Source of the DNA: a virus
DNA: 64,000 nt
Direction: 5' to 3' (one strand)
IMG/VR virus record: IMGVR_UViG_3300045988_180644
How positions within the stretch are numbered: the first letter of the stretch is position 1; the number at the start of each line of letters is the position of its first letter. The translations under genes and the position numbers were made by a program. The notes below the pieces were generated by a model. It was not told the DNA's origin. It searched no databases and worked only from the letters and a program-made list of their open reading frames with translations. Below are positions 2,400 to 56,727 of this stretch, piece after piece.

Positions 2400-3420
2400 A
2401 TAGTGGACATTAAGTATAGTATATATAAATATTTAGTGTAGTATTACTAAACATTAGTATAAAAAATATATAAAAAAAGTATATCTAAGATAAGATATAC
2501 CATGTTTTACTCTATTTTAGGATATAATTATCCTTAAACCAATATAAACTTTATATAAGAGATAATGGTTTTGTGGTTGTTTTTTTATTTGACCCCTGGA
2601 AGTGGATGCTATACCCCCTACAGATTAGACACTAAAAAAATAGTGCTTCTGTAGGAGGTATATAGTTGACAGACCCGTATAGCCTCAACCAGTGGTGTTA
2701 CCGCGTGAATTAAACACAACATATATTTCCTGCTCATCTGAGCTAACGTCTAACAGTCGATTGGCCTACGTTATAGAAATATATCCCTCTTGAACTCTTA
2801 TCTGTCACCAGATAATGAAAGCATTATGCCCGTTTCTCGTTCATGAAACTTATTGACTGTATCCATCCGTGGGATATTCTTTTGCATCATTAGGAGTTCC
2901 CACTTCTCCTTCAGCCTTAGCACTACGCACACCACAGCGTAGGTAACCGGCGTAGACATTTTTGCTCTCTCGAACAGTCGGCTCTACACACCGCTCAACG
3001 GTTTTCCTTTTTTCGAGTAAAACCTAACAAAAACTCTATTCCTCCTTGTTTTCTTAGAATCATGAAAAGTGGTTTTAAAAACGTATCCATGAGGTTTACC
3101 AATTCACCAGTCGCAGTCTCTTACTCCCCAACATCACTTTTCAGCTTATTTGAGGCTTATGGAAATAGGAAGGGTCGGAAAATAGATATTCAATTGTCCG
3201 TTATCATAGATTGATGCCTCTATCATAAGGTTACTGTTTCTTTTTTGAATAATCTACCCTCCGGCCACATTGCCATTATATATTAGAAACAAAAAATGAC
3301 TTCTCACGAAGCCAAGAAAGTACAAGAAATATAAGTTATAGAATTGTGTACTCTCCTTTCTTCTTCGTCTATATTATATCATATTTTCCTAAATTAGGCA
3401 ACAAATCATTTCGTTTTATC
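2400..3420. ncRNA. ORF-free, GC-elevated ~1 kb block: candidate large structured RNA
   Basis: no ORF >60 aa on either strand across ~1 kb in an otherwise gene-dense island; GC visibly higher than flanks. Confidence 0.3.
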
Positions 3421-3457
3421 CAAAATAAAAAGGGTCCTTAGACCCTCTGCTACTATA

Positions 3458-3715
3458 TTACATAGATTCGTGGAATGTACGAGAAATAACATCATCTTGT
3501 TGTTCTTTTGTTAATTTAACAAAGTTAACAGCATATCCAGAAACACGAATAGTTAATTGAGGATATTTTTCAGGATGTTTTTGAGCATCAATTAATGTAT
3601 CTCTGTTTAAAACATTAACATTTAAATGATGTCCTCCTTTTGTAGCATAAGCATCTAACATTCCAACTAAATTTTCAACTTGTTGTTCACTTGCAAGCAT
3701 ATTAAGCACCTCCAT
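3458..3715 (-). CDS. grcA: autonomous glycyl radical cofactor (GrcA/YfiD-like, PFL C-terminal glycyl-radical domain)
   Basis: [55 protein letters not shown] is near-identical to GrcA/pyruvate formate-lyase C-terminus, including the RVSGY glycyl radical motif; no PFL N-terminal body upstream. Confidence 0.85.
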
Positions 3716-3771
3716 AGATTTTACTATTGTAGTATATCATATACTACAAAGAAAGAAGATTGATATGCTCA

Positions 3772-4443
3772 TCAATCTTCTCGTATAGCTTTCTCAGTTT
3801 CAATATCTTCCAAAATCCTTTCCACAATCTTTTCAGCTACTTTCTCAGGTTCTTGGTCTCCATCTATAGTTTCTCTAATCTTCTTACCATCAACATCAGT
3901 AAAATAAAGAGCATCGTAACTCTTCTGAATTTCCCTATGGAATGAGATATCCATCTCATCGAACTTGTTAGTATTACGGTGGTTTTTGGCGATTCTTTCA
4001 AGTCCAACTGACACATCAGAGAGCTGAAGATAAAAGGTTTTAGAAAGTTCTGGTGGGAAGATGAATCCAAACAAATCCTTCATAACTTCTTCAACCCACT
4101 CTCCTTTTGCTATTGAATATCTATATCCCTGATAGACAAGCGTACTATCCACATATCTATCACAAAGCACAATATAGCCTTTTTCAAGATAAGGTTTGAT
4201 AGATTTTTGATAGTTTTCATTTCTTATAGATAACATCAACAATAATTCCGTCGTTTTATCTATATCGCTATATTGGGGATTGAATATGATATTTCTGATA
4301 TCTTCACAGACTTCAAGCCCTCCCGGTTCACGGATGATGACGGATGGTATGTTGAGGATGTCTAGGTGTTGTTTAACAAGCTGGATAGCTGTACTTTTCC
4401 CACATCCTTCTGTTCCTTCTAATGCGTAAATTCTTCCTTTCAT
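3772..4443 (-). CDS. tmk: thymidylate kinase
   Basis: P-loop YALEGTEGCGKST, DR(Y) motif; start moved to internal ATG (MKGRIYALEG) with GGAGG RBS; tracker start at 4482 lies inside leader cassette. Confidence 0.85.
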   Translation of the reverse strand: MKGRIYALEGTEGCGKSTAIQLVKQHLDILNIPSVIIREPGGLEVCEDIRNIIFNPQYSDIDKTTELLLMLSIRNENYQKSIKPYLEKGYIVLCDRYVDSTLVYQGYRYSIAKGEWVEEVMKDLFGFIFPPELSKTFYLQLSDVSVGLERIAKNHRNTNKFDEMDISFHREIQKSYDALYFTDVDGKKIRETIDGDQEPEKVAEKIVERILEDIETEKAIRED

Positions 4444-4456
4444 TTGTTTACCTCCT

Positions 4457-4522
4457 AACAAAAAAGACGTGGACTTACCCACATCTCAATTCGTATATTT
4501 ATCTATTACTATTTTATCATAT
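4457..4522 (-). promoter_or_regulatory. leader cassette b (before tmk)
   Basis: TATGATAAAATAGTAATAGATAAATATACGAATTGAG + hairpin ATGTGGG/CCACGTCT + T6. Confidence 0.6.
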
Positions 4523-4585
4523 TTTCTTGCTTTCTTTGTTATAGGAAAAGGAATCATGTATCAATATTGTATTGATGACTATCCA

Positions 4586-4837
4586 TTATAATTCACCTTT
4601 TTTCTTTTTATCAATCAATGTGTCGAACTGTACACATAATAGGTATAAGGTATCTCCCGTCATGTCTTCAAGTTTATAATTGGAAATGCCGGTTTTTTCT
4701 TTGATATGTTGATAATTTTGTCCTCTTTTGTAAGGTATTTTTAAACTATCCATTTCCTTCATTAATTTTTTCGCTTCCTTGATTAATTCCTTTTTGGATG
4801 CTGATGCTATTGTTTCATAATATGTTATATCAATCAC
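4586..4837 (-). CDS. hypothetical protein
   Basis: 83 aa ORF. Confidence 0.55.
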   Translation of the reverse strand: MIDITYYETIASASKKELIKEAKKLMKEMDSLKIPYKRGQNYQHIKEKTGISNYKLEDMTGDTLYLLCVQFDTLIDKKKKGEL

Positions 4838-4838
4838 C

Positions 4839-5354
4839 TCATTTTTCTATGACTTTGAAGTCCTTACTGCCACATTTTTTACATGTTAGTATCTTCATTC
4901 CTTTTTCAACAGCTCCGACTGCTTGCGTATGTCTTTGAAGATAGCTTTTTGTGTGGCATTTTTGACATTCAATGATGTATTTATATTTCTTGTGCATATC
5001 ATCAGGAATTTGTGAGAGTCGTGAAATATGATAGTTTTTATATCTATTCATCTTCTGGGCATAAACTTTCCACATTCCTCCATGTCCAGCATAAACGCAA
5101 TCGGGTGCACTATGTATTAATTCATGACATATTGTATTTTTCATTAAATTTGCATCACCATAGTCTACCAATTCTTTAGATATGCCAATTTTATAGGCAA
5201 CGCGTTTGTTATCCTTCATCTGATAATAACATTTTCCTAAAGCTCTAGAATATCTTCCATTGATGAAGATTGGAACATCATGATTATAAGGAATCCCTAA
5301 TTCATCCATATCCTTTTTAACATCTTTTATTGCTATTTGAAATAGACTAACCAT
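4839..5354 (-). CDS. SprT-like zinc metalloprotease with C-terminal zinc ribbon
   Basis: HELIHS (HExxH) motif plus CxxC...CxxC (CQKCH...CKKCG). Confidence 0.7.
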   Translation of the reverse strand: MVSLFQIAIKDVKKDMDELGIPYNHDVPIFINGRYSRALGKCYYQMKDNKRVAYKIGISKELVDYGDANLMKNTICHELIHSAPDCVYAGHGGMWKVYAQKMNRYKNYHISRLSQIPDDMHKKYKYIIECQKCHTKSYLQRHTQAVGAVEKGMKILTCKKCGSKDFKVIEK

Positions 5355-5433
5355 TATTATTCCTCCTTTAAAAAAATATCCGTAATTTCTGAATTTTTAC
5401 GGATATTTTGTTTAACATTTCTATGATATTTGT

Positions 5434-5889
5434 TTAAATATTTAATTCTGCTTCACATTTTAGCGTCAAATCTAAATCAGGCTCATCAAAATATACCTGA
5501 CAATCTGTGATGACATCTTCTTTTGCCTTTTCAATATCTTCATCGTTCCATGGATATAACCCAATGACTGTGTCCGTTGAATTTTTGATAATGTTGATGA
5601 TTTTTACGATAGGATATAGCTGAAAAACCTCATCAATAGATAATTTATATAAATCTTTTTCTTCACCATTTTCTAAATCATATTCTGTCCAAGGATTTAA
5701 TGGTGTTTTACAGTGGCAATTGAATTCTATTCCATCTTTAGATGGATATGGCTCTCCAATATTGAATTCGCCTAAAACATCTAGAGTCAATTCAATTGTA
5801 TGTCCTTCTTCATTCTTGTATGTGAGTTGAATCCAATCTAACAAATATGCGATTCCTTGTTTGGTCTTGCCAGTTACACTCATTCTCAT
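5434..5889 (-). CDS. hypothetical protein
   Basis: 151 aa ORF. Confidence 0.6.
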   Translation of the reverse strand: MRMSVTGKTKQGIAYLLDWIQLTYKNEEGHTIELTLDVLGEFNIGEPYPSKDGIEFNCHCKTPLNPWTEYDLENGEEKDLYKLSIDEVFQLYPIVKIINIIKNSTDTVIGLYPWNDEDIEKAKEDVITDCQVYFDEPDLDLTLKCEAELNI

Positions 5890-5906
5890 ATGATTATTCC
5901 TCCTTT

Positions 5907-6233
5907 TTAACGTTGTAAATTTTGCTTTGCAATCTCATCATAATATTTCTTAATAGATTCATATTCAGTATCACCACAATCAGAAAATAGGTCTTCTAAT
6001 GTACTTTTTTCTATGTCATAACACATTTTCTCATTGCTTTTCATTTCCTGAATGATAGCATCATCATTATCGAAGTAATCTTCAACACATTCAATAGAAT
6101 TTTTACCATCCACAGCAATATCTAAATATCTGAATCTATCCATTTCATCACTTGTAAGTGTGATAACCTTGCCATCTCTCTTAATTTTAAAACCTTCTTC
6201 TACGAAAGATTCCATAGTGTTTAATTTTTCCAT
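5907..6233 (-). CDS. hypothetical protein
   Basis: ORF; start set to ATG (MEKLNTMESF) with AAAGGAG RBS rather than upstream TTG. Confidence 0.55.
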   Translation of the reverse strand: MEKLNTMESFVEEGFKIKRDGKVITLTSDEMDRFRYLDIAVDGKNSIECVEDYFDNDDAIIQEMKSNEKMCYDIEKSTLEDLFSDCGDTEYESIKKYYDEIAKQNLQR

Positions 6234-12529: not shown

Positions 12530-13351
12530 TTAATTCCAGTTGACTCCAATATGGCCGTCTGGATGGATAATAACATTTGAATATCCGTCCTCATAATCGT
12601 TATGAATTTGCTGATACATATCTCCTAAAGTGATACGAGCATGTTTCCCATTGTAATTGAATGTGGTATAAACAAAGAAATCTCCTACACGGAATGTATG
12701 CAAGTCAATTTCGTCATTTTCCTGCAATTCATCCAAGATATTGATGTCATAGTCATATTTTTCAAGACTGCTTAAAAACCGAAAAGAAAACGACTGTGCG
12801 TTTGTATTATCCATGTAATCTTTTAAGTGCTTTAAGTTCATATCTTTATCTTGGACAATGGTTTGAACGGTACAATCTGGGAAATCTTCAGGATTTGGCT
12901 TTACGTAATCATTCACTGAAAGGTTGATATGACCCAAACCATTTAATTCTTTGCTGTATCCTGACGTATTAATACTTAAGAAGATATTATCGCTGTATTC
13001 TTTATAGATATCAGATAATTCCTTTACGTATTCAGGATATAATCCTGGCTCTCCACCTGTAATTGTCAATCTCGCTGCAGGATGTTCACGTAATACTTTT
13101 CTAAGAGCTTCCTTTTGTTTTTCAATATCGATTTGCCCTTTCATAGGATTCTTTCTTTCAATACAGAACGGACAATGATAAGGACATTCCTGCGTCATGA
13201 TAATCTGAACATTAATACGATAATACAATGGACGACCTAAAGAAGTCCTTTCATGACGTGTTTCTAATCTATACTTTAAATCTTCTTTCATCTGATTTCT
13301 AATCCACTCATAATTATCAATATGTGGGATAAAGTTCATTTTTCTAGTCAT
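12530..13351 (-). CDS. radical SAM enzyme (family unresolved; activase-like)
   Basis: CPYHCPFC (CxxxCxxC) cluster, LTITGGEP and INTSG motifs; start set to ATG (MTRKMNF) with AGGAG RBS. Confidence 0.75.
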   Translation of the reverse strand: MTRKMNFIPHIDNYEWIRNQMKEDLKYRLETRHERTSLGRPLYYRINVQIIMTQECPYHCPFCIERKNPMKGQIDIEKQKEALRKVLREHPAARLTITGGEPGLYPEYVKELSDIYKEYSDNIFLSINTSGYSKELNGLGHINLSVNDYVKPNPEDFPDCTVQTIVQDKDMNLKHLKDYMDNTNAQSFSFRFLSSLEKYDYDINILDELQENDEIDLHTFRVGDFFVYTTFNYNGKHARITLGDMYQQIHNDYEDGYSNVIIHPDGHIGVNWN

Positions 13352-13383
13352 AATATTCACTCCTAATAAAAAAGCTATAACGA

Positions 13384-21547: not shown

Positions 21548-21610
21548 CAAAAAAGACGTGCTATGCACGTCTTCGTTCGTTTATTTATCTACGTTAATAT
21601 TATATCATAG
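21548..21610 (-). promoter_or_regulatory. leader cassette h (before ClpC-like gene)
   Basis: CTATGATATAAT (perfect extended -10) ...AAACGAACGA + AGACGTGC/GCACGTCT + T6. Confidence 0.65.
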
Positions 21611-22082: not shown

Positions 22083-22150
22083 AATAAAAACTGTAATGTT
22101 TCCATTACAGTCCTTCTAAGAAAAGTATATCATAAATCGCTTATATTTTG
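22083..22150 (-). promoter_or_regulatory. same architecture, different sequence: TGATATACT -10, hairpin CTGTAATG/CATTACAG, U-tract, RBS of 21616..22068
   Basis: read on minus strand from 22150 down to 22083. Confidence 0.45.
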
Positions 22151-36169: not shown

Positions 36170-36312
36170 AATTTACCTATTATCTTGCTAAATAAACATG
36201 ATTAACTTTCACACATCAAAGAAAATATATGATATACTTTATGTGTAAATATTATACGAGAAGAGATTCATGTAGCTATGAATCTCTTTTTTATTTGAAG
36301 GAGGAAAATTTA

Positions 36313-45629: not shown

Positions 45630-45681
45630 AGTGATAAGAATCACTCTATTTTATCTTAAAACAAATAATATGATATAATTA

Positions 45682-45710
45682 TTGACACAATATCATTTAT
45701 ATGATATAAT
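45682..45710 (+). promoter_or_regulatory. consensus sigma-70 promoter for the tRNA array
   Basis: TTGACA-17 nt-TATAAT ~110 nt upstream of first tRNA. Confidence 0.7.
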
Positions 45711-45820: not shown

Positions 45821-45903
45821 GTCCTCGTGATGGAACAGGTAGACATGCATGGCTTAGACCCATGTGCTTATGCGTAAGGGTTCGAATCCCTTCGAGGACA
45901 CCA
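45821..45903 (+). tRNA. tRNA-Leu (anticodon TAG), class II long variable arm
   Basis: hand-folded cloverleaf: acceptor GTCCTCG/CGAGGAC, anticodon stem CATGG/CCATG loop CTTAGAC, GGTTCGAATCC T-arm, CCA encoded. Confidence 0.7.
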
Positions 45904-45947
45904 ATATCACTCCAATGCTTGTAAAGAGTGAATATATGAAATTATAT

Positions 45948-46020
45948 GAACATCTAGCATAATGGAAATGCGTAGGGTTCAGCGCCCTTCATGATACTGG
46001 TTCAAGTCCAGTGGTGTTCA
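45948..46020 (+). tRNA. atypical tRNA-like gene (anticodon loop TTCAGCG; no encoded CCA)
   Basis: acceptor GAACATC/GATGTTC, D-arm TAGCATAATGGAAATGC, T-arm ACTGG-TTCAAGT-CCAGT; paralog of 46396..46468. Confidence 0.45.
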
Positions 46021-46070
46021 AATGCCAGATAAGAAATAAAGCTAAAACAGGGATAATCATATCCCTACAT

Positions 46071-46208
46071 GGTCCTTTAGCTCAGTAGGTAGAGTAGATG
46101 ACTGTTATACATCACTACATCAAATAAAGAAAGTTAAGTACGTGATGTATGTCAACACTTTGTGTTGATAAATCATGGTTACAGGTTCGAATCCTGTAGG
46201 GACCACCA
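46071..46208 (+). tRNA. tRNA-Asn-like (GTT) gene carrying ~62-nt insertion in variable region
   Basis: acceptor GGTCCTT/AGGGACC+A+CCA pairs across 138 nt; D-arm TAGCTCAGTAGGTAGAG; anticodon loop CTGTTAT; insert forms 9-bp hairpin ATACATCAC/GTGATGTAT. Confidence 0.45.
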
Positions 46209-46236
46209 AATATACATTTTTTGTGACAAACAATAT

Positions 46237-46313
46237 TGGTGAGTAGCGTAGTTGGTTAGCGCAATCGGCTGTTAACCGATGGGTCGTGGGTTCAAGTCCC
46301 ACCTCGCCAGCCA
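46237..46313 (+). tRNA. tRNA-Asn (GTT)
   Basis: acceptor TGGTGAG/CTCGCCA, anticodon stem ATCGG/CCGAT loop CTGTTAA, CCA encoded. Confidence 0.7.
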
Positions 46314-46314
46314 T

Positions 46315-46390
46315 GGCCTGTTCGTCTAAAGGTTAGGACACAACCCTTTCACGGTTGCAATGTTGAGTTCAAGTCTCACACAGGTCACCA
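46315..46390 (+). tRNA. tRNA-Glu (TTC)
   Basis: anticodon stem CAACC/GGTTG loop CTTTCAC; GTCTAAAGG D-loop. Confidence 0.65.
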
Positions 46391-46395
46391 AAAAT

Positions 46396-46468
46396 AGACA
46401 TCTAGCATGATGGTAATGCAAAGGGTTAATTACCCTTTATGATATCGGTTCAAGTCCGATGATGTTCA
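46396..46468 (+). tRNA. atypical tRNA-like gene (anticodon loop TTAATTA; A1-C72 mismatch; no CCA)
   Basis: paralog of 45948..46020: same acceptor/D-arm, T-arm ATCGG-TTCAAGT-CCGAT. Confidence 0.45.
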
Positions 46469-46528
46469 GAATCTAATAATTATATAGACTATGTATTATG
46501 TATTGTTATTAGGGCTTAGCCCTAAAGT

Positions 46529-46605
46529 GGACATTTAGCTCAGGTGGTTAGAGCCATCGCCTCATAAGCGATTGGTCGGAGGTTCAAGTCCTTCAATGTC
46601 CACCA
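46529..46605 (+). tRNA. tRNA-Met (CAT), elongator-type
   Basis: acceptor GGACATT/AATGTCC, anticodon stem ATCGC/GCGAT loop CTCATAA. Confidence 0.7.
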
Positions 46606-46615
46606 TATAAAGATG

Positions 46616-46689
46616 GTGAGGTTAGCTTAATGGTAAAGCACTGGACTGTGGCCCCAGTTATACGAGTTCGATTCTCGTACTTCACACCA
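46616..46689 (+). tRNA. tRNA-His (GTG)
   Basis: anticodon loop CTGTGGC; extra 5' G at 46615 (His G-1). Confidence 0.65.
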
Positions 46690-46694
46690 TATAT

Positions 46695-46771
46695 TGGAAA
46701 GTAGCTCAGTTTGGTAGGGCGCACGCTTTGGGAGCGTGAGGGCATGGGTTCAAATCCCGTCTTTCCAGCCA
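46695..46771 (+). tRNA. tRNA-Pro (TGG)
   Basis: acceptor TGGAAAG/CTTTCCA, anticodon stem CACGC/GCGTG loop TTTGGGA. Confidence 0.7.
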
Positions 46772-46776
46772 TATAT

Positions 46777-46853
46777 GCCACCATAGCACAACTGGCAGTG
46801 CAACTGACTTGTAATCAGGAGGTTGGAGGTTCGATTCCTTCTGGTGGCACCAT
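46777..46853 (+). tRNA. tRNA-Thr (TGT)
   Basis: acceptor GCCACCA/TGGTGGC, anticodon loop CTTGTAA. Confidence 0.7.
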
Positions 46854-46857
46854 ATTT

Positions 46858-46944
46858 GGAGAGGTATGCCTAGTGGCGATGGCACCTGACTGTAAATCAG
46901 GCACGTTAGAAACACCGTAGGTTCGACTCCTACTCTCTCCACCA
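46858..46944 (+). tRNA. tRNA-Tyr (GTA), long variable arm
   Basis: anticodon stem CCTGA/TCAGG loop CTGTAAA. Confidence 0.7.
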
Positions 46945-46952
46945 TTTCAAAT

Positions 46953-47041
46953 GCCCAAATGGTGAAATCAGGTAGACACACTGGACTTAAAATCCAGAGG
47001 AAAATAATTCCGTGCCAGTTCGAGTCTGGCTTTGGGTACCA
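46953..47041 (+). tRNA. tRNA-Leu (TAA), long variable arm
   Basis: anticodon stem CTGGA/TCCAG loop CTTAAAA. Confidence 0.7.
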
Positions 47042-47047
47042 TATTTT

Positions 47048-47122
47048 GCGGGTGTGATTCAACGGCTAGAATGTCAGCCTTCCAAGCTGAATACGTGGGT
47101 TCGATTCCCATCACCCGCTCCA
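47048..47122 (+). tRNA. tRNA-Gly (TCC)
   Basis: acceptor GCGGGTG/CACCCGC, anticodon stem TCAGC/GCTGA loop CTTCCAA. Confidence 0.7.
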
Positions 47123-47127
47123 TAAAT

Positions 47128-47217
47128 GGAAAGTAAATCCAAGAGGTTTTGGAACACGCCTGCTAAGCGTTGTGTGGGTATGACACCCATGAGTTTCGAT
47201 TACTCTGCTTTCCGCCA
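47128..47217 (+). tRNA. tRNA-Ser (GCT), long variable arm
   Basis: anticodon loop CTGCTAA; 90 nt. Confidence 0.65.
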
Positions 47218-47220
47218 TAT

Positions 47221-47296
47221 ACGTCCTTAGCTCAGAGGAAAGAGCACGCGCCTTCTAAGCGTGATGTCAAAGGTTCGACTCCTTTAGGGCGTACCA
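47221..47296 (+). tRNA. tRNA-Arg (TCT)
   Basis: anticodon stem CGCGC/GCGTG loop CTTCTAA. Confidence 0.65.
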
Positions 47297-47305
47297 ATTC
47301 AATAT

Positions 47306-47382
47306 CGCGGGGTAGAGCAGTTTGGTAGCTCGTCGGGCTCATTCCCCGAAGGTCGCAAGTTCAAATCTTGCCCCCGCAACCA
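47306..47382 (+). tRNA. initiator tRNA-fMet (CAT)
   Basis: C1xA72 mismatch, three G-C pairs in anticodon stem (TCGGG/CCCGA), loop CTCATTC. Confidence 0.7.
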
Positions 47383-47384
47383 AT

Positions 47385-47459
47385 GGTGCATTCGTATAAT
47401 GGTTAGTATGCTTGACTGTCTATCATGAGATAGGGGTTCGATTCCCCTATGCACCGCCA
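47385..47459 (+). tRNA. tRNA, probably Asp (GTC); anticodon arm imperfect
   Basis: acceptor GGTGCAT/ATGCACC, T-arm AGGGG-TTCGATT-CCCCT; loop CTGTCTA. Confidence 0.5.
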
Positions 47460-47465
47460 AAAAAC

Positions 47466-47550
47466 GCCGAATGTCCGGGTGGTGAGGAAGGAATCTTGAA
47501 AACTCTGGGCGGGCAACCGCTTGCAGGTTCGAATCCTGTGTTCGGCGCCA
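47466..47550 (+). tRNA. tRNA-Ser (TGA), long variable arm
   Basis: loop CTTGAAA; 85 nt. Confidence 0.55.
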
Positions 47551-47551
47551 C

Positions 47552-47627
47552 GGTTTCGTAGCTCAATAGGTAGAGCGCGTGGCCGAAGACCACGGCAGTA
47601 TTGGTTCAATTCCAGTCGAAACCACCA
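47552..47627 (+). tRNA. tRNA-Phe (GAA)
   Basis: anticodon stem CGTGG/CCACG loop CCGAAGA. Confidence 0.7.
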
Positions 47628-47632
47628 TAAAT

Positions 47633-47711
47633 GGGAAATGGGACTGCTTGGAGTGGTCATCTGTTTTGCACACAGAACATCAGATGGATTCGAATCCCAT
47701 ATTTTCCACCA
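47633..47711 (+). tRNA. tRNA-Ala (TGC)
   Basis: anticodon stem TCTGT/ACAGA loop TTTGCAC. Confidence 0.6.
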
Positions 47712-47718
47712 AAAATCT

Positions 47719-47793
47719 AGGAGCGTAGCACAAAGGTGAGTGTACACGACCGATAATCGTGCGATGTAAGTTCGAGTCTTGCCGTTCCTACCA
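47719..47793 (+). tRNA. tRNA-Ile (GAT)
   Basis: anticodon stem CACGA/TCGTG loop CCGATAA. Confidence 0.7.
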
Positions 47794-47800
47794 TTTATAT

Positions 47801-47874
47801 CATCTGTAGCTTATATGGTAAAGCCACAGCCGTTAGTGCTGGGGAAGTTTGGTTCGACTCCAGACCGGATGCCA
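47801..47874 (+). tRNA. atypical tRNA-like gene; anticodon loop CGTTAGT (would read TTA = ochre UAA if functional)
   Basis: T-arm TTTGG-TTCGACT-CCAGA, acceptor CATCTGT/CCGGATG with one mismatch; position-33 G. Confidence 0.35.
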
Positions 47875-48283
47875 GAGTTAAGGATTCTCTGAGAAAAATC
47901 TATATTGGAAAGGACCACGGTGAGGAACTGTAAGCTTTTTTGCGACACTATTCCAAAACCGAAAGCATCTAGCTAATGCCTTGTTGGTCTGAGTTTCAAG
48001 TGCGAGGTTTGGGGCGACTTGAATAAAAATAGTATGGGAATAAAAAATCTGACGACAGCCGGATTGACAATATATTTCCGTCCTGTATAGGTAAAAGTGG
48101 TTTGATGTGAACCGTCAAAAGAAAAAACATCGCTGTCAAATACCGAACAAAGGATAAGAGTAGGTAAAAGACAAACCAGAATTCTTGAGGCTATTAACCT
48201 CTATTTGAATATCATTGAATAAGTTAATGGTCAACAGTCCATTGGGTAACTCCATAGGAGCGCTGTTAGGTCTTTTCTTTTAT

Positions 48284-48360
48284 AGCAGAATGGCGAAATT
48301 GGTAGACGCACAGGACTTTGACTCCTGCATTTGAAGGTTCGAATCCTTCTTCTGCTGCCA
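48284..48360 (+). tRNA. tRNA-Gln (TTG)
   Basis: acceptor AGCAGAA/TTCTGCT, anticodon stem CAGGA/TCCTG loop CTTTGAC, CCA encoded. Confidence 0.7.
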
Positions 48361-48375
48361 AAATACTCAAATAGG

Positions 48376-48969
48376 GTGATAGATTTGTCAACTTATTATG
48401 ATTATTATGTTTTTATTAAAAAGGATAATGAGTTTAAGTATGCTGGATACTATGATATCTCTGGCAAACCCCTTCCCATATATTATCATACCCGTAGCTT
48501 CTCATACGGTTTCTTAGATTATGGACAATACGTTAATGACCTAGATAAATATGGTATCCATTTACCAAACGAAGGTGATGAGGAAGATGAAGCCAGATTT
48601 GGTTACCTTTTCCAATTACCAGACATAGATTCCATTCCAGACAGAAGCCATAAAGAAGCTTATATATATCAAACTCTACAAAGAGATATGGAAATTAATC
48701 ATTTCGAATATGACATAGAAGAATATTTGGAAAATGATGAAGAATCTGTCGATGGGCATCCACTTGTTATCTGCAAGAGCGAATTTGATAGATTGTCATT
48801 AGATAAACAAAGGGAATATTTTTACTATCACTGGACTGATTATGAAGATATGTCCTACCATAGAAATATTCTATGTACCATCATCAATAACTGGATTAAT
48901 ATAAGACAATTCAAGGAATTCAGTGATGTAGATAGAAAAGACATTTATATTGTTGCCTTTGGAGGGTAG
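48376..48969 (+). CDS. hypothetical protein (start uncertain)
   Basis: tracker ORF begins inside tRNA-Gln; candidate GTG start VIDLSTYYDYY just after it. Confidence 0.4.
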   Translation: MIDLSTYYDYYVFIKKDNEFKYAGYYDISGKPLPIYYHTRSFSYGFLDYGQYVNDLDKYGIHLPNEGDEEDEARFGYLFQLPDIDSIPDRSHKEAYIYQTLQRDMEINHFEYDIEEYLENDEESVDGHPLVICKSEFDRLSLDKQREYFYYHWTDYEDMSYHRNILCTIINNWINIRQFKEFSDVDRKDIYIVAFGG

Positions 48970-48983
48970 GGGGGGTGATGTAA

Positions 48984-49712
48984 GTGCAATGTAAAATATA
49001 TAAACGCACTTGGTCGTTGAAAAGGAAGTATCAATCAGAAGCGAGTTGTTATTATCTTTTTGATATTGATTATCCTTTTCCTTATAAACCATCCTATTTA
49101 AAAGCTCACAATTATCCTCGATTTTGGTGGACAACAGAATGGAATCTTATCTGTGATGAATTCAATCCTGAAAAGTATGAAGATATGGAATGGTTTAGGA
49201 AGAATGTTGCAGGATGCTTTGTGTCTCCTAAAGCGCTTAAATATATTCCATTTGCCAAATCAGATGATGATTTCCCTGTCCATGAAATATATGAAATAGA
49301 AGTTGTACAATATAAGGTAGTCAATGAAATGAGCTATCCTATAGATATGAATAACTATATCAGTGATTATATTGAGGAAAATATTAGAAGGCGTAAGGAA
49401 ACAGCACAACATTTCGATATTGGTCGTTATTATCCATCTCTACGCTACTATTGGCGAAATCCTCAAACAACAAATGAAAAAAGACAGCAGTTATCTAAAG
49501 AGGAGAAAAGATACTATCAGGAAAACGGATGGCCTATCCAAGAACGTTCTAAAAGAAATGCAAGGAATTTGCCAGACCTGTTTGACGATAAATTCATCCA
49601 TGTTGATAAATGCTGGAAATCTCAGACTCGTCAGTCTCGACAATATTTTAGAAATAAAAGAGCCAAAAGAAAAAGAATTCATGGAGAGGAATATAGGAAT
49701 TTTGTGGGGTGA
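48984..49712 (+). CDS. hypothetical protein with basic C-terminus
   Basis: 242 aa; GTG start; RNKRAKRKRIH tail. Confidence 0.5.
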   Translation: MQCKIYKRTWSLKRKYQSEASCYYLFDIDYPFPYKPSYLKAHNYPRFWWTTEWNLICDEFNPEKYEDMEWFRKNVAGCFVSPKALKYIPFAKSDDDFPVHEIYEIEVVQYKVVNEMSYPIDMNNYISDYIEENIRRRKETAQHFDIGRYYPSLRYYWRNPQTTNEKRQQLSKEEKRYYQENGWPIQERSKRNARNLPDLFDDKFIHVDKCWKSQTRQSRQYFRNKRAKRKRIHGEEYRNFVG

Positions 49713-50011
49713 TATTCTTGTCATATACTCAAAAACGTCATTCAAAAGAAGATATTCGACATGAAGCATGTGTTCATATCAAAAGAAAAGAAAAAATATT
49801 AAAGAATGTTTATGATGCGGGCAATGGTGAATGTAAAAACAATGAAAAACTTGGCTCTTACTACGGATACACGAAAGGAAAGTCGCACCGTCTTTCAAAA
49901 GGCAAAATTCATTGCTCCTGTCCAATGTGTAGAGAAAAGACGAAGGAAAGAGGATGGAAACACGCTGATGAAGTCAATATGATGAAAGGACTTGAAGATG
50001 AGAGAGAATAG
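49709..50011 (+). CDS. small basic CxC...CxxC protein (paralog of 51856..52113)
   Basis: SHRLSKGKIHCSCPMCREKTKERGW vs THRLSDAKIHKSCPLLQRKTNKLGY. Confidence 0.5.
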   Translation: MIFLSYTQKRHSKEDIRHEACVHIKRKEKILKNVYDAGNGECKNNEKLGSYYGYTKGKSHRLSKGKIHCSCPMCREKTKERGWKHADEVNMMKGLEDERE

Positions 50012-50134
50012 CCAATGTGAATGATGGATAATTCTAGAAAAAATCCGTCAAGACTCTACTCCTATTGAGGATGGGAAAAACTCAAGCTGAAAGATGCACC
50101 AATAACCAAGTATAAGAGGAAGGCTGTTTTATAT

Positions 50135-50209
50135 CTGTCTGTGGTCCAAAGGATACGATACAGAGCTACGGACTCTGTGATGATGGTTCGATTCCATCCA
50201 GACAGGCCA
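50135..50209 (+). tRNA. tRNA-Arg (ACG)
   Basis: acceptor CTGTCTG/CAGACAG, anticodon stem CAGAG/CTCTG loop CTACGGA. Confidence 0.65.
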
Positions 50210-50221
50210 AGAGGTAGAAAG

Positions 50222-50833
50222 ATGATAAGAGATTTTGTTTATCAGAGACTTGAATCTATGATAAACACTGTACCAACAGAACATTCTCAATCTCTTAATC
50301 AATATGCGAAAGATTTTATAAAAGGAATACAAGAGAAATGTGATGTCACAATGTCACATGTGTTTATCGAAAATTTCCCTATGATAGTTACTATTCATGA
50401 TATAGGGAAAAAGCATATTCCAGATTATATTTTAGAAAAAACAACTCAGTTGACGGATGATGAATATGAATGTGTGAAACATCATTGCATTTTAGGATAT
50501 GAAGACTTGCAAAAAGCTTTCAACAACATACCTCTGAATGAAGAAGAAAGGGAGTTGATAGAATTATGCAAGGAATCATGTTTATATCATCACGAAAGAC
50601 TTGATGGGAGCGGATATCCTTATGGTTATAAGCAAATCCCTCTTATCGCTCAGATGGTAGGAATTCTTGATAGTTTTGATGCTATGACTGTAAACAGATG
50701 CTATAAGAAAGCCATGAGCAAAGAAGAAGCTATCAAAAAACTTATTCAATCAGACAAATATAATGAGGAATTTATTTATGTATTATCGGAGGTGATAGAA
50801 AATGAAAATGAAATTAGAAATTCAGACAAATGA
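50222..50833 (+). CDS. HD-GYP domain phosphohydrolase (cyclic-dinucleotide phosphodiesterase family)
   Basis: HDIGK...HHCILGYED...HHERLDGSGYPYGY signature; start moved past tRNA-Arg to ATG (MIRDFVYQ) with AGAGGTAGAAAG RBS. Confidence 0.75.
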   Translation: MIRDFVYQRLESMINTVPTEHSQSLNQYAKDFIKGIQEKCDVTMSHVFIENFPMIVTIHDIGKKHIPDYILEKTTQLTDDEYECVKHHCILGYEDLQKAFNNIPLNEEERELIELCKESCLYHHERLDGSGYPYGYKQIPLIAQMVGILDSFDAMTVNRCYKKAMSKEEAIKKLIQSDKYNEEFIYVLSEVIENENEIRNSDK

Positions 50834-51008
50834 ATTGAATGTAACATATGAAGAATTAGTCAATCATGTTAAAGACTCTTTAAAAATGAAGAATGTCCCT
50901 TTAACAAAAGTGAAAGATGTAAAAGCATATTATGTTCCTAACACAAAAGTTTTGTATTACACAGCCATGTATAATGGTGAAGAAATCAAAGGAGAAAAAT
51001 ACTTGTAG
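50802..51008 (+). CDS. hypothetical protein
   Basis: 68 aa ORF overlapping HD-GYP 3' end. Confidence 0.4.
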   Translation: MKMKLEIQTNELNVTYEELVNHVKDSLKMKNVPLTKVKDVKAYYVPNTKVLYYTAMYNGEEIKGEKYL

Positions 51009-51009
51009 T

Positions 51010-51450
51010 TTTATACTTACAGTTTTCTCTTTATGCCAGCATTGCGATGAAACCTCCTCGTGGTTGCTGGTGGGTCGCGCTAATATCATCACAAGAAACA
51101 GACATATGGCTGAAAATCCTTTCAACGGGATAAGGCACACTTGCTTCATGGTGGGTGGAATTCCCATTACAGAAACTCGATTGAGATATAACATAAAGTG
51201 GTTCCAAGATGAACAATGCCGTTTGTAAATTGGCTGTGCGGACAAGGCTTTCCTATCCGGGTAACAAGGAAAGGGAAATCCTTCTGGTGATGCAAAGGTC
51301 GAGGCACAGGCTCCATGGTAGAAAAATCCAGAGAAGAAAAACATATGGTGATATATTCTGTAGTTGATACCATGGTTGAAGGTTACAGAGTCCTTTTTTA
51401 ATGCAATGAAAGCAAACGAGGAGCAGCATGTTGAGGTATGTACGTCTGTT
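51010..51450. ncRNA. ORF-free, GC-elevated ~440 nt block immediately upstream of tRNA-Gln: candidate structured RNA
   Basis: only overlapping low-complexity ORFs on both strands (50901..51539 etc.); GC-rich relative to flanks. Confidence 0.3.
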
Positions 51451-51453
51451 TGT

Positions 51454-51528
51454 ATCGGGATAGCATAATGGTAATGCGCATGGCTCTGAACCATGTCAGT
51501 GGAGGTTCGAATCCTTCTCCCGATGCCA
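51454..51528 (+). tRNA. tRNA-Gln (CTG)
   Basis: acceptor ATCGGGA/TCCCGAT, anticodon stem CATGG/CCATG loop CTCTGAA. Confidence 0.65.
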
Positions 51529-51683
51529 AAATAATGCAAATGACCTAAATCATGATAAAATGATAGTGGTAATCCTAATATCAGGAGCCACTATAATAGA
51601 AGATGGTAGCAGGGAACTATCATCTTCACTATTACATTAAAAAAAAGGAGAAAGATGATAGAAAACCACTATCATCTTCAAAT

Positions 51684-51758
51684 ATCTCCATAGTTTAGTT
51701 GGTAGAACGTCGGTCTCCAAAACCGAAAGCAGATGTTCGAGTCGTCTTGGAGGTGCCA
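51684..51758 (+). tRNA. tRNA-Trp (CCA)
   Basis: acceptor ATCTCCA/TGGAGGT, anticodon stem TCGGT/ACCGA loop CTCCAAA. Confidence 0.65.
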
Positions 51759-51759
51759 T

Positions 51760-51833
51760 GGTTTCTTGGCAGATTGGTTATGCGCAGGACTGCAACTCCT
51801 GTCAAGCTGGTTCGATTCCAGCAGAAATCTCCA
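51760..51833 (+). tRNA. tRNA-Cys (GCA)
   Basis: anticodon stem CAGGA/TCCTG loop CTGCAAC, T-arm GCTGG-TTCGATT-CCAGC. Confidence 0.65.
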
Positions 51834-56632: not shown

Positions 56633-56727
56633 AATAAAAACAACAAAAACTAGATAATAGCATATCTATATTGACTGAAAACAGTTAATATGATATAATA
56701 TGTATACATTTGAAGGAGGTATGATAG

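What the first reader, a model, noticed from the sequence alone, without database searches (positions are those of the whole stretch)
3458..3715. Standalone 85-aa GrcA-like glycyl-radical 'spare part' protein in a phage-like island
The ORF matches the C-terminal ~60 residues of GrcA/pyruvate formate-lyase almost residue for residue (…[42 protein letters not shown]…). It is shorter than E. coli GrcA (127 aa), and no PFL body lies upstream; the upstream minus-strand neighbour is tmk.
Basis: partly seen in the sequence, partly recalled or inferred. Interest (0 to 1): 0.5.

Follow-up and report, generated by a model that had tools for sequence, protein, structure and literature searches.

The report
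Mobile-element copy of PFL's detachable radical subunit
A large gut mobile element (phage or plasmid, not resolved) carries a small, recently acquired bacterial gene for the radical-bearing tail of pyruvate formate-lyase; genes of this general kind are already well known in phages, but in the likely host this tail is normally made as a separate protein, so the element probably supplies a working enzyme subunit and not only a repair part.

Summary
The ORF is real: 3458..3715 on the minus strand. The true start is most likely the ATG at 3700, giving 80 aa rather than 85. It is a glycyl-radical domain protein that passes NCBIfam's curated cut-off for GrcA3 and fails the cut-offs for GrcA/YfiD, GrcA2 and full-length PFL. 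The window holds no PFL body, no PflA and no glycyl-radical activase.

The gene has its own promoter-like motif, Shine-Dalgarno site and terminator. It sits in a large AT-rich mobile element found in human-gut assemblies, on contigs up to 187 kb. Whether the element is a phage or a plasmid is unresolved.

The new point concerns the family. In 73 of 85 bacterial GrcA3 loci (Lachnospiraceae, Ruminococcus, Oscillospiraceae, Erysipelotrichaceae) GrcA3 follows a PFL gene that stops just before the glycyl-radical domain. PflA usually follows. Body and GrcA3 cover the PFL profile end to end (positions 1-666 and 663-744).

The closest chromosomal copy is 98% identical in protein. Its body protein is identical to one named from Massilimicrobiota timonensis.

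So the element most likely supplies the radical subunit of the host's two-piece PFL, activated by host PflA. GrcA-like genes in phages are long known (T4 Y06I; 1,586 phage records here). This is a new member of a known kind with an interesting twist.

The parts
3458..3700 (-). grcA3 coding sequence, 80 aa plus TAA (preferred start). The mechanical ORF extends to the ATG at 3715 (85 aa).
   Evidence: ORF list. NCBIfam GrcA3 164.6 bits against cut-off 158. Homologues are 79-80 aa. Nucleotide homology to bacterial grcA3 starts at 3701. Called as 80 aa in L160 and L161.
3536..3538 (-). GGA codon of the predicted radical glycine. It is Gly55 of the 80-aa protein and corresponds to PflB Gly734 and GrcA Gly102, within RVSGY.
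   Evidence: Sequence. Alignment to PflB and GrcA. The position is invariant in 28 homologues.
3709..3713 (-). Shine-Dalgarno GGAGG, 8 nt upstream of the ATG at 3700.
   Evidence: Read from the sequence.
3731..3741 (-). Promoter-like extended -10 motif TATGATATACT (TRTGnTATAAT type).
   Evidence: The motif TATGATATAMT occurs 8 times in the window against 0.31 expected. Every copy is in gene orientation upstream of a gene, the tRNA array or the noncoding unit. Function is inferred.
3727..3749 (.). Palindrome TTGTAGTATAT-C-ATATACTACAA (perfect 11-nt arms around a central base) overlapping the -10 motif. Possible operator.
   Evidence: Unique in the window; 0 expected by chance. Function unknown.
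3429..3448 (-). Intrinsic-terminator-like hairpin followed by a T-run, directly after the grcA3 stop.
   Evidence: BLASTN homology to the bacterial locus L155 (91.7% over 288 nt) runs through the stop codon to 3414, so it spans this terminator region.
3772..4482 (-). tmk (dTMP kinase), the upstream neighbour. The likely true start is the ATG at 4443 (223 aa). A terminator-like hairpin at 3782-3753 separates it from grcA3.
   Evidence: Pfam and TIGR00041. Hairpin. Called as 223 aa in L160.

Best explanation
The gene encodes an 80-aa GrcA3-type glycyl-radical domain that a large gut mobile element acquired recently from an Erysipelotrichaceae host of the Massilimicrobiota/Coprobacillus group.

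In that host lineage PFL is made in two pieces. The first is a body of about 690 aa that carries the catalytic Cys-Cys but no radical glycine. The second is GrcA3, which carries the glycine. PflA is encoded next to them.

Proposed mechanism:
- The element transcribes its own grcA3 from a strong sigma-A-type promoter.
- Host PflA, with S-adenosylmethionine, abstracts a hydrogen from Gly55 of the element's protein.
- The protein docks on the host PFL body in place of, or in addition to, the host subunit.
- The glycyl radical is passed to the body's active-site cysteine, and pyruvate + CoA is converted to acetyl-CoA + formate.

The small subunit is the oxygen-labile, sacrificial part of the enzyme, so extra copies would raise or maintain PFL activity while the element replicates. 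That activity gives ATP through acetyl phosphate and formate for one-carbon and nucleotide synthesis.

What is shown: family membership, conservation of all family-conserved residues, absence of a body or activase in the window, the split architecture in bacteria, near-identity to a host copy, and purifying selection.

What is inferred: activation by host PflA, docking on the body, and the benefit to the element.
For: Family and fold:
- NCBIfam GrcA3 scores above its cut-off.
- All columns that are at least 95% conserved among the bacterial GrcA3 copies compared here are retained.
- RVSGY and 52 other positions are invariant in 28 homologues.
- An AlphaFold model of moderate confidence (pLDDT 68) best matches the YfiD structure 6OWR and the PflB C-terminus.

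Split PFL in bacteria:
- In 73 of 85 bacterial loci (which include five redundant Erysipelotrichaceae loci, L001-L004 and L155) the upstream PFL ORF stops after ...ALGK(D/E)DQVF.GD... and has no RVSGY-type motif.
- GrcA3 follows as a separate ORF 15-982 nt downstream, usually with PflA after it.
- The gap length and reading frame vary, and each cistron has its own ribosome-binding site.
- On TIGR01255 (744 positions) the body covers 1-666 at 1116 bits, above the cut-off of 994. The window protein covers 663-744.
- The body keeps the ACCVS active-site motif.

Recent capture from a host:
- The protein is 98% identical to P0004, which lies in a split-PFL operon (L155).
- Across the 80 codons there are about 6 synonymous and 3 non-synonymous differences by Nei-Gojobori counting (dS 0.13, omega 0.12).
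- BLASTN homology (91.7% over 288 nt) starts at the ATG and continues past the stop codon through the terminator region.
- The L155 body protein is identical to one named from Massilimicrobiota timonensis.

Dependence on host partners:
- The window has no PFL body, PflA or NrdG.
- Its one radical-SAM ORF is not a glycyl-radical activase.

Expression signals and recurrence:
- The gene has its own promoter-like motif, ribosome-binding site and terminator.
- Other mobile or viral contigs carry GrcA3 copies whose nearest chromosomal relatives belong to different lineages. This suggests repeated capture.

Precedent: E. coli YfiD and T4 Y06I, activated by PflA, restore PFL (PMC8683613). An engineered PFL(1-695) with YfiD(61-127) can be activated to a glycyl radical, although poorly (PMC8683613).
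Against: - No experiment shows that the two-piece PFL works or that GrcA3 is its only radical source.
- I could not test whether the host genomes also encode a full-length PFL elsewhere.
- The host of this element is inferred only from gene identity and similar G+C content.
- In 9 loci with at least 2.5 kb of upstream sequence, GrcA3 has no PFL body upstream and sits among housekeeping genes. Three further loci lack a body hit but have too little upstream sequence to judge. GrcA3 can therefore also exist unlinked, possibly as a true spare.
- The dN/dS estimate rests on 9 substitutions.
- In E. coli, removing PflB residues 696-733 weakened YfiD binding and activation (PMC8683613). The natural split system must therefore differ in ways not examined here.
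Confidence: 0.6

Rival explanations
1. It is a classical spare part, as for E. coli YfiD and T4 Y06I. The protein repairs a full-length host PFL whose own radical domain was cleaved by oxygen.
For: This is the validated role of the only two characterised relatives (PMC8683613, PMC13450708). The protein is 73% identical to the YfiD C-terminal domain. Unlinked chromosomal GrcA3 copies exist. One metagenome-assembled genome has both an operon copy (L075) and a second, unlinked copy (L073).
Against: It fails the GrcA cut-off (101.7 against 170) and lacks the N-terminal region that YfiD needs for efficient activation (PMC8683613). Its nearest relatives sit behind PFL genes that have no radical domain to lose. 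In such hosts 'repair' and 'normal assembly' are the same event.
Confidence: 0.2
2. It is a passenger gene with no role for the element, picked up by illegitimate recombination and not yet lost.
For: The capture is recent (dS 0.13) and the gene is small. It lies in a region of small unknown ORFs.
Against: Non-synonymous change is low (omega 0.12, from few sites). The gene differs by only 1 nt among variants of the element whose tmk differs by about 3%. It has acquired the element's own promoter motif and a strong ribosome-binding site. GrcA-type genes recur in 1,586 phage records and in about 20 viral contigs of the GrcA3 type.
Confidence: 0.08
3. It acts on something other than normal PFL catalysis. 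It could compete with the host subunit to down-regulate PFL, or serve another glycyl-radical enzyme such as the class III ribonucleotide reductase.
For: In other mobile and viral contigs the GrcA3 gene lies next to nrdG (TIGR02491, 191 bits). In large enterobacterial phages GrcA-like genes lie next to nrdD/nrdG.
Against: The radical glycine and every conserved position are intact, and the protein is 98% identical to the host subunit. The sequence is PFL-type (RVSGY; it matches TIGR01255 positions 663-744). No NrdD or NrdG is present in the window. The nrdG adjacency fits equally well with PFL-derived formate serving as reductant for class III reductase. That last link is drawn from my own knowledge of E. 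coli and T4 and was not tested here.
Confidence: 0.05

Closest known systems
NCBIfam NF038360, autonomous glycyl radical cofactor GrcA3
   Same: Scores above the curated cut-off over the whole 78-position profile. Same length (79-80 aa) and the same invariant residues. 84-98% identical to many members.
   Different: This copy is on a mobile element, away from any PFL body or PflA. Most bacterial members lie between a body-only PFL gene and pflA. No paper in the searchable library uses the name GrcA3 or describes the split arrangement.
E. coli GrcA/YfiD (TIGR04365; PDB 6OWR)
   Same: The C-terminal 63 residues are 73% identical, including the radical glycine. It is the best structural match. 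The shared expected chemistry is activation by PflA followed by radical transfer to the PFL cysteine.
   Different: YfiD is 127 aa, with a disordered N-terminal half that is important for activation (PMC8683613). This protein lacks that half. Instead it has about 20 residues homologous to PflB 679-697. It scores below the family cut-off (101.7 against 170).
Phage T4 Y06I and the GrcA-like genes of T4-, T5- and jumbo-type enterobacterial phages (phrog_1209)
   Same: A virus-borne PFL radical domain that relies on the host PFL and PflA. Y06I is experimentally validated (Wagner et al. 2001, as cited in PMC8683613). 1,586 phage records hold such a gene, and the window protein matches phrog_1209 at E 2e-34.
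   Different: Only the C-terminal 60-64 residues align with those proteins (the phrog profile is 121 positions). Those phages infect hosts with a one-piece PFL. Here the donor lineage has a two-piece PFL.
C-terminal glycyl-radical domain of pyruvate formate-lyase PflB (TIGR01255; PDB 1H16)
   Same: Aligns with PflB 679-759 at 66% identity and with TIGR01255 positions 663-744.
   Different: It is a free-standing polypeptide. The remaining 666 profile positions are absent from the window.

Membership tests
GrcA3 (NCBIfam NF038360) | Whole-protein score at or above the curated cut-off (158 bits), matching the full profile | tested here: met
   164.6 bits. Residues 9-85 of the 85-aa ORF match profile positions 2-78 of 78.
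GrcA3 (NCBIfam NF038360) | Short protein of about 80 aa without the long N-terminal extension, carrying the RVSGY radical-glycine motif | tested here: met
   80 aa from the ATG at 3700. RVSGY at residues 52-56. Invariant in 28 homologues.
GrcA3 (NCBIfam NF038360) | Usual genomic setting between a body-only PFL gene and pflA. This is my observation, not a curated criterion. | tested here: not met
   No PFL body or PflA in the window or in the flanks of the same element. Met in 73 of 85 bacterial loci, including the closest relative L155.
GrcA3 (NCBIfam NF038360) | Glycyl radical installed by PflA, and PFL activity conferred on a PFL body | not testable with these tools
   Needs EPR and enzyme assays.
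GrcA/YfiD spare-part protein (TIGR04365) | Score at or above 170 bits. About 127 aa, with the N-terminal 60-residue region. | tested here: not met
   101.7 bits. Only profile positions 62-126 are matched, and there is no N-terminal region.
GrcA2 (NF008341) | Score at or above 145 bits | tested here: not met
   112.3 bits.
Pyruvate formate-lyase (TIGR01255) | Full-length enzyme with the Cys-Cys active site and the glycyl-radical domain in one chain (cut-off 994 bits) | tested here: not met
   101.5 bits, covering only positions 663-744. No body is present in the window.
Glycyl-radical domain fold (Pfam PF01228) | Sequence match above the gathering score, and a fold resembling solved glycyl-radical domains | tested here: met
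   86.5 bits against 22.2. The model (pLDDT 68) matches 6OWR and 1CM5. About 45 core residues superpose on many glycyl-radical enzymes at 1.1-1.7 A.
Phage auxiliary metabolic gene | Carried on a demonstrable virus genome | tested here: inconclusive
   The window has a tRNA array and phage-family replication and regulator hits. It also has ParAB and RepA_N, and no terminase, portal or capsid was detected. The element was not found in IMG/VR.

The most novel reading that the evidence does not exclude
In many gut Clostridia and Erysipelotrichia, PFL is naturally a two-polypeptide enzyme whose radical-bearing domain is a separate, replaceable 9-kDa subunit. Mobile elements and phages of these hosts exploit this by carrying their own copy of that subunit. 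They would then contribute a catalytic subunit to a central host enzyme, not just a repair part. I found no description of a natural split PFL in the papers I could search. Recent papers state that YfiD and Y06I are the only two validated spare-part proteins (PMC8683613) and that such proteins are known only for formate lyases (PMC13450708).
Probability: 0.55. Interest if true: 0.6.

Novelty: new member of a known kind. Interest (0 to 1): 0.42.

Why it matters
On its own the gene is one more example of a well-known theme: phages and other mobile elements that carry a PFL radical domain.

The context makes it more useful. It points to a widespread natural PFL that is split exactly where enzymologists have cut the E. 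coli enzyme to study repair. That natural system could show how a detached radical domain is recognised, activated and exchanged, and how spare parts might be engineered for other oxygen-sensitive glycyl-radical enzymes.

For gut ecology, it suggests that mobile elements of Erysipelotrichaceae and Clostridia tune formate and acetyl-CoA production by supplying the limiting, sacrificial subunit.

Tried and rejected
- Split-gene or exon reading for this copy: tblastn of a 689-aa PFL body, the 68-aa operon ORF, PflA and NrdG against the window gave nothing except the grcA3 locus itself, which the GrcA3 query matched and the 68-aa ORF matched weakly (E 8e-4, its N-terminus resembles that of GrcA3).
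- An activase encoded by the element: the only radical-SAM ORF (12530-13360) gives weak, sub-threshold hits to viperin, MoaA and NrdG2 and is not a glycyl-radical activase.
- Intron, frameshift or read-through joining body and GrcA3 in bacteria: rejected. The gaps are 15-982 nt in varying frames, and each cistron has its own stop codon and ribosome-binding site.
- Relatives of the element: megablast of the first 20 kb against GenBank phages hit only grcA. The helicase gave no IMG/VR relative. The RepA_N protein gave only weak hits to staphylococcal plasmids and streptococcal prophages.
- Phage or plasmid: PHROG and Pfam scans of 76 window ORFs found no terminase, portal or capsid, so the question stays open.
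- Literature: no paper contains 'GrcA3', and none was found that describes a split PFL.
- The noncoding stretch downstream of grcA3: no Rfam hit even at E of 10 or less. No BLASTN hit in GenBank phages. Of two 20- and 21-mer scans of IMG/VR, one found nothing and the other gave a single match in a contig that shares no other similarity with the window.

Full report
**1. The observation**

The window has an ATG-to-TAA ORF of 85 aa at 3458..3715 on the minus strand.
- It matches Pfam Gly_radical (E 2e-24).
- It matches the C-terminus of E. coli PflB, residues 679-759, with 50 of 76 aligned residues identical.
- It matches residues 65-127 of E. coli GrcA, with 46 of 63 identical.
- The radical motif RVSGY is intact. 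The glycine codon is at 3536-3538.
- The gene just upstream on the same strand is dTMP kinase.

One refinement concerns the start codon. Four lines of evidence favour the ATG at 3700, giving 80 aa.
- The homologues are almost all 79-80 aa.
- Nucleotide similarity to the bacterial gene starts exactly at the second ATG, at 3700.
- A GGAGG lies 8 nt upstream of that ATG.
- Other assemblies of the same element call the gene at 80 aa.

**2. Which family**

Against NCBIfam the protein passes the curated cut-off of one family only, GrcA3 (NF038360): 164.6 bits against 158, over the whole profile.

It fails three others:

| Family | Score (bits) | Cut-off (bits) |
|---|---|---|
| GrcA/YfiD | 101.7 | 170 |
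| GrcA2 | 112.3 | 145 |
| Full-length PFL | 101.5 | 994 |

The full-length PFL match covers only profile positions 663-744.

It keeps every column that is at least 95% conserved among the bacterial GrcA3 copies compared. An AlphaFold model of moderate confidence (pLDDT 68) best matches the YfiD NMR structure and the PflB C-terminus. Its core of about 45 residues superposes on many glycyl-radical enzymes at 1.1-1.7 A.

**3. What the window lacks**

tblastn with a PFL body, PflA, NrdG and the small operon ORF found no PFL body, PflA or NrdG anywhere in the 64 kb. The only other hits were at grcA3 itself. The single radical-SAM ORF (12530-13360) is not a glycyl-radical activase. Any activity must therefore use host partners.

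**4. The gene as a transcription unit**

- A terminator-like hairpin (3782-3753) follows tmk.
- Next comes a unique palindrome (3727-3749) that overlaps the motif TATGATATACT (3741-3731).
- That motif (TATGATATAMT, an extended -10 of the TRTGnTATAAT type) occurs 8 times in the window against 0.31 expected.
- Every copy is in gene orientation and upstream of a gene, the tRNA array or the noncoding unit described in section 9.
- After the motif come the ribosome-binding site, the ORF and a terminator-like hairpin at 3448-3429.

The promoter function is inferred from the motif pattern and was not shown.

**5. What GrcA3 is in bacteria**

This changes the interpretation. The closest relatives lie in bacterial chromosomes in the order PFL gene, a 60-68-aa ORF, GrcA3, PflA.

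The PFL gene there encodes only about 690 aa.
- It ends ...ALGKDDQVFAGDLDIDSIKEGNI and then a stop codon.
- It retains the ACCVS active-site cysteines.
- It has no RVSGY motif.

On the PFL profile TIGR01255 (744 positions) the body covers 1-666, at 1116 bits, above the cut-off. GrcA3 covers 663-744. The two proteins together make one complete PFL with no gap.

I examined 85 bacterial loci. Eighty come from a scan of one genome per species. Five are redundant Erysipelotrichaceae loci found by exact-protein look-ups (L001-L004 and L155).
- 73 loci have this split arrangement, and PflA was detected within the fetched flank in most of them.
- The gap between the two ORFs is 15-982 nt, in varying frames, and each cistron has its own stop codon and ribosome-binding site. 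An intron, frameshift or read-through is therefore excluded.
- The taxa are Lachnospiraceae, Ruminococcus (including R. albus), Oscillospiraceae, Acutalibacteraceae and Erysipelotrichaceae.
- Nine loci with at least 2.5 kb of upstream sequence have GrcA3 without a body, among ordinary housekeeping genes.
- Three further loci lack a body hit but have too little upstream sequence to judge.
- One metagenome-assembled genome has both an operon copy and an unlinked copy (L075 and L073).

I could not test whether these genomes also encode a one-piece PFL elsewhere.

**6. Origin of the copy in the window**

- The protein is 98% identical to P0004, which lies in a split operon (L155).
- Across the 80 codons there are about 6 synonymous and 3 non-synonymous differences by Nei-Gojobori counting (dS 0.13, omega 0.12). 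These are small numbers.
- BLASTN similarity (91.7% over 288 nt) begins at the start codon and continues past the stop codon to 3414, spanning the terminator region. The 5' leader is unrelated.
- The PFL body of L155 is identical to a protein named from Massilimicrobiota timonensis (Erysipelotrichaceae). Cluster mates come from Coprobacillus and Allocoprobacillus.
- G+C content is similar: 32.6% in the window and 30-32% in the host loci.

From this I infer a recent capture from this host group. I take that group as the likely host.

**7. The element**

The whole window looks like a mobile element.
- Genes for ParA, ParB, a RepA_N initiator, a RecD2-type helicase, RecJ, a polymerase exonuclease, a RuvC-like resolvase, a Gp49/HTH pair and many ORFs of unknown function.
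- A block of 25 tRNA genes.

Identical proteins occur on human-gut contigs of up to 187 kb. No terminase, portal or capsid family was detected in the window. The element was not found in IMG/VR. Whether it is a phage, a phage-plasmid or a megaplasmid stays open.

A second element type (L005-L008) carries a GrcA3 of the same host type next to NrdG and a relaxase. About 20 IMG/VR contigs of 100-330 kb carry GrcA3 copies. Their nearest chromosomal relatives belong to other lineages. This suggests repeated, independent capture.

**8. Mechanism and comparison with what is known**

E. coli YfiD and T4 Y06I are the only validated spare-part proteins. PflA installs the radical on them, and they replace the oxygen-cleaved domain of PFL (PMC8683613, PMC13450708, PMC12338860).

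An engineered PFL(1-695) with YfiD(61-127) has the architecture of intact PFL. It can be activated to a glycyl radical, although poorly (PMC8683613). The natural body plus GrcA3 pair is the same design, cut about 15 residues earlier.

The most likely reading (confidence about 0.6) is as follows. The element's GrcA3 is activated by host PflA and serves as the radical subunit on the host body. This adds to or replaces the host subunit, which is the oxygen-labile part. PFL output would then be sustained.

A link to nucleotide supply is speculation only.
- tmk lies next door in this element.
- nrdG lies next to GrcA3 in other elements.
- Formate feeds one-carbon metabolism and, in E. coli and T4, the class III reductase. 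This last point is from my own knowledge.

The rival readings are a classical spare part for a one-piece PFL (0.2), a neutral passenger (0.08), and an inhibitor or a partner of another enzyme (0.05).

**9. Seen in passing**

- A conserved noncoding stretch of about 780 nt follows grcA3 and has its own promoter-like motif.
- The tRNA block contains a tRNA with anticodon UUA and a tRNA-like gene with a 64-nt insertion.
- A small Cys-rich ORF sits inside the bacterial split operons.

Details are in the separate list.

**10. Verdict**

GrcA-type genes on phages have been known since 2001 and are very common (1,586 phage records). GrcA3 is a curated family. This is therefore a new member of a known kind.

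Its value is as a pointer to a natural two-piece PFL. I found no description of that in the searchable literature.

Noticed in passing
window 2590-3366 (minus strand), directly downstream of the grcA3 terminator: A stretch of about 780 nt with no ORF longer than 53 aa. G+C reaches 44% against about 30% around it. It has a sigma-70-like promoter (TTGCCT, 17 nt, TATAAT with an upstream TG, 3401-3373). Its folding energy is below that of shuffles (z = -3.6) and it ends in a strong hairpin. Among variants of the element it has 2 differences in about 600 nt, while tmk has about 21 in 700 nt. A hypervariable patch lies at about 2640-2790. No Rfam family matches and no GenBank phage matches. It is a candidate large structured RNA of unknown kind.
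   Followed up: partly
window 45821-51833: A block of 25 tRNA genes. One has anticodon UUA (47801-47873) and would read the UAA stop codon. UAA is nevertheless the commonest stop among 89 ORFs (49 TAA, 24 TAG, 16 TGA) and ORFs look normal under the standard code.
   Followed up: no
window 46071-46205: A 135-nt sequence matches the full tRNA model (51 bits). The anticodon loop reads GUU (Asn) and there is an insertion of about 64 nt at the variable-arm position. ARAGORN did not call it. A normal tRNA-Asn(GUU) lies just downstream.
   Followed up: partly
L003 7772-7978 and equivalent positions in many bacterial loci (for example L155 2493-2699): Many split-PFL operons have a 60-68-aa ORF between the body and GrcA3. 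tblastn detected one in roughly half of them. Its N-terminus resembles that of GrcA3. It ends in an acidic Cys-containing tail (...CDSGDTACKIPNLPMDDDEEF). In some other genomes a similar tail (...CPSCANIPNISDTDRD...LDQGCCEETVM) is fused to the end of the PFL body. No family matches. It may be an assembly or activation factor of the two-piece enzyme.
   Followed up: partly
L005-L008 (contigs up to 95 kb); IMG/VR loci L091, L096, L099, L100, L101: Other mobile or viral contigs carry GrcA3 next to a class III ribonucleotide reductase activase (NrdG, 191 bits). In L005, L006 and L008 a relaxase (Pfam) follows GrcA3, and tblastn shows its homologue in L007 as well. The pairing of a PFL radical domain with anaerobic nucleotide-reduction genes recurs.
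   Followed up: partly
window 3373-3383, 3731-3741, 21599-21609, 22124-22134, 36228-36238, 45669-45679, 45700-45710, 56689-56699: Eight copies of TATGATATAMT against 0.31 expected. All are in gene orientation in intergenic positions, including two in front of the tRNA block. This is probably the element's strong extended -10 promoter.
   Followed up: partly
L094 (IMG/VR contig of 110 kb), positions 3953-6222: A contig classed as viral carries both a body-only PFL gene and GrcA3. The pair lies about 3 kb from one contig end, so it may be host DNA beside a prophage and not viral cargo.
   Followed up: no
P0002 (89 aa, metagenome homologue): One homologue has a tandem duplication of the radical motif ([18 protein letters not shown]). 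This could be an assembly artefact or a real variant.
   Followed up: no
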